The notes: a model not told the origin generated them from the letters alone. Shown: positions 11,042-60,450, counted from the stretch's first letter. The stretch is DNA of 64,000 bases from Octopus vulgaris (GCA_951406725.2 OX597814.1:58962001-59026000), one strand, 5' to 3'. A program made the numbers and translations.

Positions 11042-11081
11042 CCAGAGTTCTTTCGTCACACTCCTGTGACCGCATCAGTGG
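11042..11081 (-). ncRNA. Variant minimal hammerhead ribozyme (CUGAUGC core) in a probable PLE terminus
   Basis: Minus strand reads CCA-CUGAUGC-G-GUCACA(GGAG)UGUGAC-GAAA-GAAC-UC-UGG. Confidence 0.55.
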
Positions 11082-11560
11082 TCCTTTGTTTTCTTCTTTC
11101 GTATTTGTGTCTCTCCTTACTAACCGTCAGCCATTTTGTATTTCTATTGTATGTCTTCATTTGCACATGCTTATATCTCTATGTGCGTCTATGTTTATTT
11201 AGTGTGTGTGTGGGGGGGGATGCATGTAATATTTGTATCTTCTGTTTATATACATTCATGTAATTTGTATTTTGTTTTTGTTGTTGTTGCTTTTGTTCTA
11301 ATTTTGTTCATGTGTTTACATCCACCCATTATTATCATTACATATGCTTGTATGTATGTATAACAACAATATTAGTAATAATAATAATAAATCTAATCGA
11401 AAAAAAAAAGAAAATCTAATCGAAAAAAATATATATATATACATATACACATATATATACACATATACATATATATATATATATATATATATTATTATTA
11501 TTATTATTGAATTGAAGAAATGGAGTTGAACGAAGATTGAACAGAAATCGTTTTATTTCA

Positions 11561-11645
11561 TTCTACACGTGTTTCGAAAGGCACAATTTACCAAATTCCG
11601 ATTGAATAATGAGACCATATTGTGTTTTTCTCTTCAGGAAGAAAT
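11561..11645 (-). ncRNA. Type I hammerhead ribozyme (inverted copy)
   Basis: Reverse complement of 11738-11822; differs only in stem II (GAAAAACACAAU). Confidence 0.75.
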
Positions 11646-11737
11646 AGGAAATCCGTTGGCCATGGGCTCTTAGGAGCCTAGTTCGATTTGTTTTGCTCCG
11701 CCTCTGTTCTGTTTTTGTTTTTTCCAACGGATTTCCT

Positions 11738-11828
11738 ATTTCTTCCTGAAGATAAAGACACAATATGGTCTCATTATTCAATCGGAATTTGGTAAATTGT
11801 GCCTTTCGAAACACGTGTAGAATGAAAT
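11738..11828 (+). ncRNA. Type I hammerhead ribozyme
   Basis: UUC-CUGAAGA(11746-52)-UAAAGACACAAU...AUUGUGCCUUUC-GAAA(11808-11)-CACGUG-UA-GAA. Confidence 0.75.
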
Positions 11829-12754
11829 AAAACGATTTCTGTTCAATCTTCGTTCAACTCCATTTCTTCAATTCAATAATAATATTAAAATTCAATTATC
11901 CGCACCAACGCGCGGTTGCAACACCATATGGTTGTACCTCCAACCGTGCTGTCTTCTGCTGTGATTTTTGCTACCAAGGTATCGGTTAAACTTTTGATTA
12001 ATCTGCAACAAGATTATTCATCTTTCTATTTCACATAATATATATATATATATATATATATATATATATATAGAGAGAGAGAGAGAGAGAGAGAGAGAGA
12101 GACAGAGAGAAAGAGAGAGAGTGAGAATAAAAGAAGGAAAATGCACACGCACTTTACATACTTTTAATCTATTTTGTATTGTTTTTGTTCAGCGGTTTCC
12201 TTTTCGCCAATCATGACACTGAAATAATTGCAATTTCGTATTTTCTTCAGAAAATTGTAATCCATGTATGTGGAGAAGTTGATGAATGAACGATTTAACA
12301 AGTGGAAAAATCTAAGGGGAGGTAATTGGTGATCGTTATCCTTAGGGACCAGTGAGGTAATTGTTCATCATTCGGGAAGGGGATAAATATGCACAAAAAC
12401 TTAAAAGTGAGAAATAAACGCAATATTGATGGGTATGTGATCATGAATTGAAATATATACTAAGTTGGTTATGCATTCATATTTAGACGCGTTCTGTATT
12501 TTTCGATGAACATTTTTCCTTTATTTAAATGTCCATGTATAGAAATTGTTTCTTTGCACTGGTAGATGTGGAAAACTGAAGTTTGTTTAGATATTACCTG
12601 CGCATCTCTCTATGTGTTCACTCAAAGGAACCTGTGTGTGTTGGGGGAACCGGATCTGCTCTTTATGAAGTGAGTTGCTATGTATACACACACGCATATA
12701 TAAATATTTATACACACACACACACACACACACACACACACATATATATATATA

Positions 12755-13170
12755 TTACTCTTTACTCTTTTACTCTTTTACTTGTTTCAGTCATTTGACT
12801 GCAGCCATGCTGGAGCACCACCTTTAGTCGAGCAAATAGACCCCGGGACTTATTCTTTGTAAGCCCAGTACTTATTCTATCGGGCTCTTTTGCCGAACCG
12901 CTAAGTGACGGAGACGTAAACACACCAGCATTGGTCGTCAAGCAATGCTAGGGGGACAAACACAGACACACAAACATATACACACTTATATATATATATA
13001 TATATACATATATACGACAGGCTTCTTTCAGTTTCCGTCTACCAAATCCACTCACAAGGCATCGGTCGGCCCAGGGCTATAGCAGAAGACACTTGCCCAA
13101 GATGCCACGCAGTGGGACTGAACCCGGAACCATGTGGTTGGTTAGCAAGCTACTTACCACACAGCCACTC
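12755..13170 (-). mobile_element. Full-length SINE family A
   Basis: Reverse complement of the family A head, with an internal (TA/TG)n tract and a GTAAAAGA tail repeat. Confidence 0.92.
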
Positions 13171-57028: not shown

Positions 57029-57352
57029 AAGACTCCCTTCGGTCATAAATGACCACTGGATTGCCCTGCAAAAGCTCCCCTCCGAGGCACAAGTCCGTGA
57101 AATTTTGTTTATGGATGACTAGCAGTCGCCCAAGCATACCAGCCTCCTATCGCTACCGATGTTTCCCGACGGAAAGGCAAATGCCGATACAGCTTAGCAA
57201 CAGCGATGTCGCAACTCATTTCTACAGCAGACTGAACTGGAGCATCGTGAAATAAAGTGTCTTGCTCAAGAAAACAACACAGCGCGATCTGGGTATCGAA
57301 CTCACTACCACATGATTGTAAACCCGACGCCCTAACCGCTGATTCATGCGCC
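57029..57352 (-). mobile_element. SINE family C
   Basis: Reverse-complement homologue of 15669-16008. Confidence 0.88.
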
Positions 57353-57379
57353 TTCACATACACTTATGTGGTTAAGGCA

Positions 57380-58280
57380 AATGTAATGATGCTAAAGCTG
57401 TAAAATCTTGTATGCATGAATTTCAACCCTTCTTCCTTATAACTAGATTGAGTCTCTACTTGTAAACAAATACCTCACTGTCCAAAGAAGATTTCAAAAG
57501 TAAGTAGTTGCCACCTGCCCTGAAAATGGACAAAATTTGGTATTCACAGAAAAAGAGAATAACCACCACGGGAATTCACGCTGACACGATTGCTACATTA
57601 GGGGATGTTGCTTCAACTTTATCAACAGCGGAAAGTTGGGCAGCTGAATTTGCCAGAGGAAGCAAGAGACCCGAGGACTGGAGGTCCTGCAACTGCCACC
57701 ACCGACGAATACATTGATTGCGTTCACTACATAGTGAAGAACGACAACTGATAAACGATAATTCAAATGGTTAATTCTATTAGCATATCTCGTGTAAGAG
57801 TTTTGAATATCCTGCATAAGGTACCTGACATGACGGAGCCTGCTTCTCGGTGGGTTCTAAGTCTTCTGATGCATGATCAAAAGCGTATCAGGCTGATCAC
57901 ATCACGGGAGAATCTGATATTGTTTCAGGCAGATATAATTGGTTTCCTTGAACGTTTCCTACCCAAGATGTGTGTTTGGTTCATCACTTGGAGCCAGAGA
58001 GAAAGAGACAAACCATGCCACGGAAACACCACTCGCCACTTGCTCCAAAGATCATGCGCGTTTCATATGCAGAGAAGTGGATGCCTTTAGCCTTTCCGGA
58101 TGCAAGAAGACCCATACCAACAATGGGGAGTACTATACCAACTTGTTGAGGCAGATACGAAAGGCTATCATGAAATAACACCTAGAAATTTCAATGTCTG
58201 CTGTGCGTGTATATGGCTTTGTACTGGTTGTTCATCGTTTCCATTCTCCTAGTGTAGCCCGAACTTACTAGCATCTGTAC
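57380..58280 (+). mobile_element. Degenerate mariner relic, same family as 1094-2355
   Basis: IHADTIATLGDVASTLSTAESWAAEF (HTH) and ASRWVLSLLMHDQKRIR...FLERF; ends are approximate. Confidence 0.8.
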
Positions 58281-58617
58281 TATTCATCATAAAGAGATAC
58301 ACATACGTTCATATACACGTACTCTGTTTCATTAAAAGATAGACAAGTTGTTGGTCGGAGAATCTAAAGAAGGAATAAATTTACATAGCCCTATGTGGTG
58401 TGTGCATGTATGAAACTCTCTTTGTCTACATTATTGTCTAAAATTCTGCTAATAAAACATTTGATAAATTGCTGGTTATGCGGATATCATATTTTCTTTT
58501 ATTATTATAATATCATTAAGTGCAAGATATATATATATATATATATATATATATAGAGAGAGAGAGAGAGAGAGAGAGAAGGAGTTAAAATACAGTTGTT
58601 ATTCAAATCTTTGTACA

Positions 58618-58689
58618 TCCTACATATGTTTCGAAGAAACATTGGAGGGAAGAAAATGATGTAAAACAATGCGATCTTCTCATCAGGGA
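58618..58689 (-). ncRNA. Type I hammerhead ribozyme with intact core
   Basis: UCC-CUGAUGA-GAAGA...UCUUC-GAAA-CAUAUG-UA-GGA. Confidence 0.8.
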
Positions 58690-60366
58690 GAAAAAGAGAT
58701 ACAAAACACATCACTAAGCCATATTTAAACCGAAGCTAATGACTGAGTATATGATGAAGAGAAAACTGGGAAGTTTGTTTTTAACTGTTAATAGATTTAA
58801 AGCCACAAGCAATTTAGAGAAAAAGAAGGAGGAGAAAGAAAGAAATTGGCAGAAAGCCATGAGTGGAGAAATGTAGTGCGATAGATGAATGTGAATAAAG
58901 CTTAAAAGCGTGGAAATAGATATATCTCGGGGATATGAAATGTAAGAAAACATTTAACGGTCAAATTTTATAGATTGGTGGAAATGACGTATAGGAACTA
59001 AAGGTATTATTTTGCCAATTTTTGCAACGATAAACACGTTCTTTAAACGTGTTTACAAGAGAATTCTCTGAGAACAGAATGAGATACATTTCTTCGTTAC
59101 AGAGCGGACAAGAAGATTTACATTTATCACATGGAAAGAACCTAGATTGAATATTTCATTCCAAGTCAAATTGTTTATTATATTGCTTCAGAGACCAAAT
59201 TTTTCTACTAAGCCAGTATTGTTGTCATATATATTAATATATGTATAATTGTAGAGTAATGTTTAGATAACGTTTTGCACAACTGAGGTGAAGAACTACC
59301 TATGTAAAAAAAAAACGTCAGAACCAGGAAGTACATTTCTAAACAAAGATTATTGTCGTAGAAGTACTGCTAAGGAAACGAATGTGATTCGAATTCATGT
59401 CACAAATGCTAATATTGTCGTTATTATTGAACAAAGAATAGTTGCTGTTAATAATATATATGTTACTTTTTTCATTAAGTTGATTTGTATTTAACAGCTT
59501 ATTGTTATGCGAAGAGGTAATTTGTGAACGGATTTTGGTGTTTGAAAACCCTCTTTTGATTCCATGTGAGTTGATAATAGAATGGTATCTTGGATTTTTT
59601 TGCGGGAAATACATATCTACAGTTTCACAGAACTGGTAAGGAAGGTTAGATTCGATCTGCTTACCATATGGAATTATCAACCAAAATGATTTACTAGGAC
59701 ATACCTTACCTTGTTTTTAGGCTTTTATAACAAAATAGGCTCTTAAAAACCGTTACCTTACTTATGCTGCAAAATTAAATTGTTCGATGTAGTGTTGTTA
59801 TTCGAACTAAGATTTATGTTGTCATTACAACAATATTGGGCTTAGTATATTAATTTGGACTCTGAAGGAACATAATAAACAATTTGATTTGGAATGAAAT
59901 ATTCTATCTAGGTCAATTCCTTATGATATATGTAAATTTTCTCGTCCGCTCTGTAACGGAGAACTGTATCTCATCCTGTTCTCGGAGAATTCTCTTGTAA
60001 ACACGTTTAAAGAACGCCTTTATCGTTGCAAAAATTGGCAAAACATACCTACAGTTCCTATATATAATTTCTACTTATGTATAAAATTTGACCTTTAACT
60101 GTCTTCTTACATTTCATTTCCACGAAATATATCTTTTTCCACTTCTTTGAGCTTTATTCGCATTCATCTATCTCACTGCATTTCTCCACTCTTCCTTTTC
60201 TGCTAATTTCTTTCTTTCTCCTCCTTCTCTTTCTCTAAATTGCATTTGACGTTAAATTTATTAACGGTTTTTGATTTTTAAATAACTTGCCAGCATTTCC
60301 TTTATCATACACGCAGTCATCAGCTTCGGTTAAAATGGTTAAAATGTTTTGTTTCTGTTTGTTTTT

Positions 60367-60450
60367 CTCCCGATGAGAAGATCGCATTGTTTTATATCAT
60401 CTTATTCCCTATGGAATAGTACCATTGCTTACTTCGAACCATATGTTGGA
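60367..60450 (+). ncRNA. Degenerate hammerhead (inverted partner)
   Basis: CCGAUGA-GAAG...CUUC-GAAC-CAUAUG-UU-GGA, with core mutations. Confidence 0.6.

What the first reader, a model, noticed from the sequence alone, without database searches (positions are those of the whole stretch)
11042..60450. Dense set of PLE-borne hammerhead ribozymes with family-specific palindromic stem III
Seen: about 10 CUGANGA...GAAA-x-UH motifs with pairing stems I and II at 11042(-), 11561(-), 11738(+), 22055(+), 36462(-), 40448(+), 49943(-), 52447(+), 58618(-) and 60367(+). Stem III is nearly always a self-complementary hexamer or heptamer (CACGUG, CAAUUG, CAUAUG, CUCAGAG) followed by UA, although the flanking sequences are unrelated. 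Established: PLE pLTRs encode minimal type I hammerheads whose palindromic stem III favours dimeric cleavage. Inference: at least six PLE families in 64 kb keep this design, and the differing palindromes could act as a family-specific pairing code. Two unrelated families share CAAUUG and might cross-activate. If this is an intron, intact copies on either strand could cut host pre-mRNA.
Basis: partly seen in the sequence, partly recalled or inferred. Interest (0 to 1): 0.75.

Follow-up and report, generated by a model that had tools for sequence, protein, structure and literature searches.

The report
Paired hammerhead ribozymes of Penelope retroelements
These motifs are tail pieces of common jumping genes that carry a small, predicted self-cutting RNA, which likely works only when two copies of the same lineage pair up; the design is already published, and the palindromes are shared too widely to be a family code.

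Summary
The motifs are real: 7 strict hits against 0.05 in shuffles. Three of the ten have broken or variant cores, and an eleventh motif (32812) was missed. The genome holds about 56,000 more such cores than a control pattern, so the window is roughly 3-4 times the average, not unique. Palindromic stem III with dimeric cleavage is published, including the same CUCAGAG heptamer in a Hydra PLE. The family-code idea fails: unrelated families share palindromes, and one family carries two. A dimer also needs cross-pairing in stem I, which the two CAAUUG families lack (0 bp). No strand of the window holds two copies of one family, so host pre-mRNA cutting is unlikely. Three things I did not find in print: palindromes change through G·U but not A·C intermediates (57 vs 0 in 200 listed copies); about 39,000 cores have a 41-70-nt stem II; and a young A9C core-variant subfamily (1,903 copies) outnumbers its canonical parent (531). 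Cleavage is untested. The scan noted the same idea, with the same verdict, in another genome (e1-8664523).

The parts
11033..11088 (-). Family A type I hammerhead variant: core CUGAUGC (A9C), 6-bp stem II, non-palindromic stem III GAAC, CUC triplet (H17 at 11045). Lies in the 3' end of a PLE whose longer copies have a Neptune-type linker.
11552..11647 (-). Family B hammerhead, left (short-ended) arm: intact core, 55-nt stem II, CACGUG, H17 at 11564
11736..11831 (+). Family B hammerhead, right (long-ended) arm: G10.1 to U breaks the first pair of stem II; H17 at 11819. The two-armed insertion spans about 11495-12037.
17299..18539 (+). Family C PLE remnant: short RT piece and C-terminal GIY-YIG endonuclease, followed by about 3.5 kb of 3' UTR
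22049..22105 (+). Family C hammerhead: intact, 16-nt stem II, CAAUUG, H17 at 22093; 101 nt identical in all 40 scored genomic matches (this copy included)
32802..32862 (+). Link to a PLE not shown.
36457..36557 (-). Family D hammerhead, left (long-ended) arm: intact, 60-nt stem II, CAAUUG, H17 at 36469
36704..38944 (+). Family D PLE ORF remnant (RT and GIY-YIG), 5'-truncated, with in-frame stops
40444..40544 (+). Family D hammerhead, right (short-ended) arm: U16.1C, predicted inactive
49936..49987 (-). Family E hammerhead, left (long-ended) arm: intact, 2-bp stem II with GCAA loop, CUCAGAG, H17 at 49948
50994..51443 (.). Centre of the family E palindromic insertion (about 49837-52521, arms 99% identical), holding the endonuclease C-terminus on both strands
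52446..52497 (+). Family E hammerhead, right (short-ended) arm: intact, H17 at 52485
58609..58696 (-). Family F hammerhead, left (short-ended) arm: core intact, 47-nt stem II with an internal deletion, CAUAUG, H17 at 58621; old family (77-82% identity to other copies)
59018..60032 (.). Family F endonuclease remnants on both arms (59018-59212 minus, 59829-60032 plus)
60360..60459 (+). Family F hammerhead, right (long-ended) arm: U4C and A15.1C, predicted inactive

Best explanation
The motifs are type I hammerhead sequences at the 3' ends of truncated Penelope-like retroelement copies, and their self-complementary stem III likely acts as a two-copy gate, so that cutting would need two copies of the same lineage to pair through both stem III and stem I. 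Shown: the motifs, their PLE context, tandem full-length copies with a hammerhead in each repeat (unit 3.36, 4.2 and 6.3 kb for E, D and C), and conservation of pairs that can form only between two copies. Inferred from the published double-hammerhead mechanism: a tandem pLTR-ORF-pLTR transcript folds the two motifs together, probably helped by the element's own protein, and releases a unit-length RNA that may be circularised. Inferred: the solo and inverted copies in this window have no sense partner, and a read-through RNA would bury each motif in a long hairpin with the opposite arm, so they would be inert. Specificity follows descent (stem I plus stem III), not a family-unique palindrome.
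For: The innermost pair of the palindrome cannot form in a single hairpin, yet it is Watson-Crick in 19 of 28 clusters, G·U in 5 and unpaired in 4. Chance is 0.28; binomial P about 1e-5, with clusters not fully independent. Of the first 100 of 18,316 genome matches with the four inner bases left free, 71 are perfect palindromes, 14 pair with G·U and 15 do not pair (hand count; about 8 perfect expected). Wobble intermediates amplified and A·C intermediates did not: CGAUUG 35 vs CAAUCG 0 and CAUGUG 22 vs CACAUG 0, hand counts of 100 rows each. Flanking sites show no sense-strand bias favouring these changes (private A>G 46 vs T>C 40, C>T 35 vs G>A 43; shared 8 vs 21 and 38 vs 27). Monomer stem III hairpins cost +1.8 to +2.9 kcal/mol for 6-7-nt inserts, against -5.8 to -13.3 as homoduplexes. 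The two-copy fold is 9-16 kcal/mol better than two monomer folds, linker cost ignored. Of 18 cluster pairs with matching stem III, 2 also have stem I of 3 bp or more both ways. Literature: multimers, not monomers, of a PLE minimal hammerhead cleave weakly (PMC4209133); the Anolis PLE hammerhead cleaves only with protein (PMC11167929).
Against: No cleavage was tested, and only assembled contigs, no raw RNA reads, were available. Neither the monomer nor the two-copy active fold is the predicted minimum-energy structure. Family A spread to more than 2,400 exact-pattern copies with a non-palindromic stem III, 1,903 of them with A9C, so the gate is not needed by every PLE. A C-lineage subfamily with central U·U mismatches (CAUUUG, 8 of 100) also amplified. 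Copies end about 30-225 nt downstream of the cut site, so the template was uncut or re-ligated there. In vitro, PLE insertion did not need hammerhead cleavage, and no RNA-seq ends were found at the cut site in Anolis. Copy counts reflect a few master elements, so 57 vs 0 overstates the number of independent events.
Confidence: 0.7

Rival explanations
1. Family-specific code: each family has its own palindrome, which alone decides who cleaves with whom, so families sharing CAAUUG cross-activate.
For: Many heteroduplexes are predicted to be much weaker than homoduplexes, e.g. CAAUUG x CACGUG -0.9 against -6.4 and -10.3 kcal/mol. 14 of the 16 possible C-NNNN-G palindromes occur among the listed rows (hand count).
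Against: Palindromes recur across unrelated clusters. One family carries two. Wobble neighbours cross-pair at -6 to -8.5 kcal/mol. C x D stem I is 0 bp. In Hydra magnipapillata six listed families share CTTTAAG or differ from it only at the unpaired centre (File S2 of PMC8557442).
Confidence: 0.07
2. The two-copy fold is kept for a non-cleaving role, such as RNA dimerisation or a binding platform for the PLE protein dimer that primes both target ends; cleavage is weak or incidental.
For: 42 of 44 resolved two-armed insertions have one short and one long end (8 of 52 pairs unresolved), matching the two internal RT start sites of PMC11167929. Insertion in vitro used uncut RNA.
Against: Family A, with no palindrome, also makes short-plus-long two-armed insertions (4 of 4 resolved). 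The catalytic words are conserved in the families studied, which a pure dimer signal would not need; the genome-wide patterns select for them and so are no test.
Confidence: 0.13
3. The motifs cleave as protein-assisted monomers, and the palindrome is a by-product.
For: E (3 bp plus a 3-nt loop) and G (4 bp plus a 4-nt loop) can close a stem III alone; the Anolis motif needs protein.
Against: This does not explain complementarity, or the wobble asymmetry, at pairs that cannot form within one strand.
Confidence: 0.07
4. Intact copies cut host pre-mRNA in this locus.
For: Eight of the eleven motifs keep the core words; patchy low cover of 1-10400 by contigs of guessed RNA runs.
Against: No host gene was identified. 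No same-family partner lies on either strand. Predicted arm-to-arm duplexes of -120 to -209 kcal/mol would sequester the paired motifs.
Confidence: 0.03

Closest known systems
[quoted passage not shown]
   Same: Location in pLTRs, type I topology, short stem I, palindromic helix III (their Fig. S3 lists 6-8-nt cases in Aedes, Saccoglossus, Drosophila willistoni and Hydra), dispersal as solo truncated copies, opposite-strand pairs 100-700 bp apart, proposed dimeric action.
   Different: Their listed helix II inserts are short (up to about 25 nt); here 41-70-nt stem II cores are about 39,000 above control. Copy number is far above their 4,000-9,000 in coelacanth and Xenopus, with different descriptors.
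Hydra-clade PLE hammerheads (Craig et al. 2021, PMC8557442; passages, section 11 and supplement part 2 of 59 with File S2 read)
   Same: DKT and RWK motifs, CxCx5C linker, CxxC and CxH around the endonuclease, (TA)n targets, tails, inverted arms; 6-8-nt near-palindromic stem III. CTCAGAG of family E is listed for Penelope-3_HM, and Hydra-2_Amil has the same layout as E.
   Different: No long stem II among their Hydra entries (the two long-loop cases are plant PLE-X elements marked atypical). No analysis of palindrome evolution or cross-family pairing in the parts read.
Double-hammerhead cleavage of newt, axolotl and avocado sunblotch viroid RNAs; repeat-type hammerheads of Perreault et al. 2011 (PMC3088659, passages, section 8, Fig. 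S8 legend; PMC7229834 and PMC6155905, passages)
   Same: Unstable stem III with a palindromic loop that pairs between two copies.
   Different: Those partners are a few hundred nt apart in tandem repeats; here they are 3.4-6.3 kb apart in ORF-bearing elements, or absent.
Anolis Poseidon PLE (Frangieh et al. 2024, PMC11167929; parts 1-2 of 4 read)
   Same: Two fixed 3' ends downstream of the hammerhead, AT-rich targets.
   Different: Different PLE clade. Here family A offers a possible natural counterpart of their result that cleavage is dispensable.
Animal non-LTR retrozymes (PMC7229834, passages; bioRxiv 10.64898/2026.07.22.740005, part 1 of 5)
   Same: Type I hammerheads related to PLE pLTRs.
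   Different: Families A-F are attached to RT/endonuclease sequence, not short non-coding tandem units.

Membership tests
Type I hammerhead ribozyme | Core CUGANGA, GAAA, UH | tested here: met
   Met in 8 of 11 motifs; not in A (A9C), D+ (U16.1C) or F+ (U4C, A15.1C)
Type I hammerhead ribozyme | Stems I and II with covariation | tested here: met
   B/F lineage, 14 sequences: 6 of 12 stem II pairs and 1 of 4 stem I pairs change on both sides; 88% of cells paired against 36-50% for slid controls. Pairs-with-change count does not exceed the shuffle (193/500), and the structure was drawn from these sequences.
Type I hammerhead ribozyme | Stable stem III within one copy | tested here: not met
   Positive hairpin energies for the inserts tested (G's 10-nt insert not tested alone). 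Expected for dimer-type motifs.
Type I hammerhead ribozyme | Rfam hammerhead model match | tested here: not met
   No hit at gathering; none among 150 of 212 rows shown at E<=10
Type I hammerhead ribozyme | Self-cleavage after UH | not testable with these tools
   No bench assay; only contigs of guessed RNA runs
Dimer-type PLE hammerhead | Self-complementary 15.2-16.2 and loop 3 | tested here: met
   B, C, D, F, G fully; E with one central A·A; not A
Penelope-like element | RT and C-terminal GIY-YIG upstream of the motif | tested here: met
   RT and endonuclease for A, C, D, E; endonuclease only for B and F; nothing shown for G. Read from motifs and tblastn among these elements; Pfam gave only a sub-threshold GIY-YIG hit for D and no RT hit.
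Penelope-like element | Partial tandem or inverted structure, optional tail | tested here: met
   Tandems for E, D, C; none seen in 7 long A loci; two end classes in A-F
Hydra clade | RWK and DKT motifs | tested here: met
   E (RWK, DKT), C (KWK, DKT), D (RWK, DKT); region not held for B and F
Hydra clade | CxCx5C linker; CxxC and CxH around conserved E and N | tested here: inconclusive
   Both in C and D; E copy L014 lacks the second linker Cys; B has CxxC and, in one of two copies, CxH, with no linker found; F not tested
Hydra clade | Insertion into (TA)n | tested here: met
Hydra clade | Phylogenetic placement with reference RTs | not tested
   No tree built
Neptune/Nematis clade (family A) | Cx2-5CxxC linker before GIY-YIG | tested here: met
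   One such motif in L274; clade not fixed by a tree
Non-LTR retrozyme | Short non-coding tandem units | tested here: not met
   Window copies are ORF-linked or solo; G unresolved

The most novel reading that the evidence does not exclude
This genome records, in tens of thousands of copies, the evolution of an intermolecular RNA helix: stem III palindromes move from one Watson-Crick form to another only through G·U intermediates, and stems I and III together act as a lineage lock that confines cutting to tandem transcripts of the same element and spares host RNAs carrying solo copies. Beside this, a Neptune-type family has amplified most strongly after an A9C change in its catalytic core, which would be natural evidence that some PLEs spread without cleavage.
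Probability: 0.3. Interest if true: 0.6.

Novelty: new member of a known kind. Interest (0 to 1): 0.33.

Why it matters
The function of PLE hammerheads is an open question: they are conserved, yet weak in vitro and dispensable in the one reconstituted system. The basic observation here adds nothing to that, but the genome offers natural test sets. Matched subfamilies differ only in stem III (CAAUUG vs CGAUUG). Unrelated families share stem III but not stem I (C, D). A9 and A9C sister subfamilies differ in the core. The long-stem-II class would be missed by descriptors with short helix II limits, so hammerhead counts in such genomes may be well underestimated.

Tried and rejected
Rfam found nothing useful; the mir-515-like hit at 51179-51258 is the centre of the E palindrome. 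The repeat finder was swamped by microsatellites, and only its inverted list helped. Pfam did not recognise the PLE RT. A first descriptor was too strict, with 3 hits. I looked by eye for a pseudoknot between the long stem II and the flanks: candidate pairings in F and one relative were not shared by B, so I rejected it. Strand-biased mutation or A-to-G editing as the cause of the wobble asymmetry was rejected. The palindrome as the cause of two-armed insertions was weakened by family A. The L255 relative of A with a GAUC palindrome is one diverged copy with a broken GAAA, so the order 'palindrome lost, then A9C' is not established. Candidates at about 1440 and 16960 had no homologues among the loci held and were dropped. 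No RNA holder was listed on record; runs were guessed RNA and contigs only. Contigs laid on 1-10400 showed no GT-AG joint, which says nothing about introns elsewhere; contigs cover the E element but cannot show ends or strand. Sequence beside the window was not fetched, so the host-gene context is open. Heterodimer energies involving D are not comparable (no stem I forms) and were not used. No paper on the effect of A9C was found; that A9 changes lower activity is recalled, not read.
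Full report
Observation. The window is G000:C1:58962001-59026000 of a 2.8-Gb animal genome; no call established the taxon. All ten sites carry a hammerhead-like motif. A descriptor asking for CUGANGA, a closed stem II of 8-80 nt, GAAA, a 2-9-nt insert with paired ends, UH and at least 3 bp of stem I, but not for a palindrome, gives 7 hits, all palindromic, against a mean of 0.05 in 100 shuffles. 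Allowing longer inserts adds an intact motif at 32812.

Context. C, D and E lie downstream of RT and GIY-YIG sequence in the window or in longer copies; B and F downstream of endonuclease remnants. C, D and E carry the RWK/KWK and DKT motifs, and C and D the CxCx5C linker, that Craig et al. 2021 give for the Hydra clade. Family A has a Cx4CxxC linker of Neptune/Nematis type. No tree was built. Tandem copies with a motif in each repeat exist for E (about 3.36 kb, 3 of 12 loci), D (4.2 kb) and C (6.3 kb). Copies end in (TA)n at two fixed distances beyond the cut site. Of 52 two-armed insertions, 44 could be resolved, and 42 have one short and one long end; all four pairs in the window do too. 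Earlier scan notes report two-armed insertions for other repeats of this genome.

Density. One hundred 10-kb stretches at fixed spacing on 16 contigs hold 35 hits, against 0-2 in five shuffles. Genome-wide, CUGANGA-N10-40-GAAAC-NNNN-GUH occurs 18,316 times (control 1,524), and with N41-70 40,530 times (control 1,593). The window has 6 such matches against 1.34 expected; about 530 windows should have 5 or more. It is in the upper tail but not special.

Is stem III built for dimers? Yes, by sequence evidence. Descriptor hits from the window and all loci then held (103 distinct) fell into 34 clusters, a few of them probably chance. Among the 28 with even inserts of 4 nt or more, the innermost pair, impossible in a hairpin, is Watson-Crick in 19, G·U in 5 and unpaired in 4. 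By hand count of the first 100 rows, 71 are perfect palindromes. In the C lineage (3,267 matches, control 0) the first 100 read CAAUUG 44, CGAUUG 35, CGAUCG 12, CAUUUG 8, CAGUUG 1 and CAAUCG 0. In the CAYRUG class (11,909 matches, control 16) they read CAUAUG 54, CACGUG 24, CAUGUG 22 and CACAUG 0. One CAAUCG copy does appear among the rows. Neutral decay would give the G·U and A·C forms about equally, and flanking sites show no bias towards the G·U-giving changes. These rows all come from the start of contig C1 and descend from few masters, so the direction is solid but the odds are not 57 independent events.

Is it a family code? No. Palindromes recur across clusters, the youngest C family carries two, and B and F, one lineage, differ. 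Simple pairing does discriminate many heteroduplexes, but by the geometry of the double hammerhead (established; Fig. 1A legend of PMC4209133 read, the figure not seen) each core uses the other copy's UH and 3' strand of stem I. C x D forms 8 bp in stem III and none in stem I. Only 2 of 18 cluster pairs with matching stem III have 3 bp or more of stem I both ways (contiguous pairs from the junction, one representative per cluster). Published tables show the same sharing in Hydra.

Host RNA. The plus strand carries B+, C, G, D+, E+ and F+; the minus strand F-, E-, D-, B- and A. No family occurs twice on one strand, and inverted arms would pair with each other. No host gene was identified.

Against an essential role. 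Family A has a non-palindromic stem III in nearly all listed rows. Its A9C subfamily has 1,903 exact-pattern matches against 531 for canonical A9. The 21 A9C copies compared were 98.5% alike, against 90.1% for 20 A9 copies; the A9C set was chosen as best matches to the window copy, which inflates its similarity. C9 could pair with G12, and A9 changes are recalled to lower activity; I found no paper on A9C.

Comparison with what is known. PLE hammerheads with palindromic helix III, opposite-strand pairs and weak dimeric cleavage are in Cervera and de la Pena 2014. The palindromic character is also in the Fig. S8 legend of Perreault 2011. Hydra-clade motifs, including E's heptamer, are in Craig 2021. 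Protein-assisted, dispensable cleavage is in Frangieh 2024. In nine searches of an open-access library I did not find the long-stem-II class in animal PLEs, the wobble path or the A9C subfamily. Subscription papers, figures, bioRxiv supplements and unread supplement parts (most of the Craig archive, part 3 of Cervera's, Perreault's Figs S6-S8) may hold them. Earlier notes of this scan mention a long-stem-II retrozyme in this genome, and a report on another genome reached the same verdict on the code idea; I saw that after my own tests.

Verdict. Interest 0.33, for the testable side findings.

Noticed in passing
window 32802-32862 (+); relatives L099:1881-1973, L205:669-747: Intact hammerhead with a 10-nt palindromic stem III (12 bp as a dimer, 4 bp as a monomer) in a short TA-flanked repeat; carrier element unknown.
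   Followed up: partly
window 11033-11088 (-); genome-wide: A9C core variant in 1,903 copies against 531 canonical; occurs with two stem II loops (GGAG, GAAG), hinting at more than one master.
   Followed up: partly
genome-wide; window families B, D, F: About 39,000 cores with a 41-70-nt stem II above control; inserts up to 100 nt seen (L238). The B/F lineage keeps two covarying outer helices, a bulge and an inner hairpin.
   Followed up: partly
L220:6883-6948 and 7105-7170; L262:7767-7832: Relatives of family E with a CCGAYGA core (U4C), present on both arms of one insertion.
   Followed up: no
window 18540-22050; L283: Family C has a 3.5-kb 3' UTR with GT-rich internal repeats and a 200-300-codon open frame of no Pfam family, also seen in other copies; unit length 6.3 kb.
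   Followed up: no
window 49837-52521: Near-perfect 2.6-kb palindrome with an 8-nt centre (1.3-kb arms, 99%); a strong double-stranded RNA source if transcribed.
   Followed up: partly
rows: A C-lineage subfamily with CAUUUG (tandem U·U in the dimer) amplified on both arms of insertions.
   Followed up: no
window 46372-46809 and 61500-61838: Tc1/mariner transposase remnants (PF01498, PF17906).
   Followed up: no
window 9107-9327, 15208-15339, 22684-22948, 30583-31294, 44135-44353, 55030-55208: Dispersed family of a short repeat with very high contig depth in guessed RNA runs at the first site; probably a SINE.
   Followed up: no
L189:8975-9098: Two-armed family E insertion whose two hammerheads start only about 25 nt apart.
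   Followed up: no
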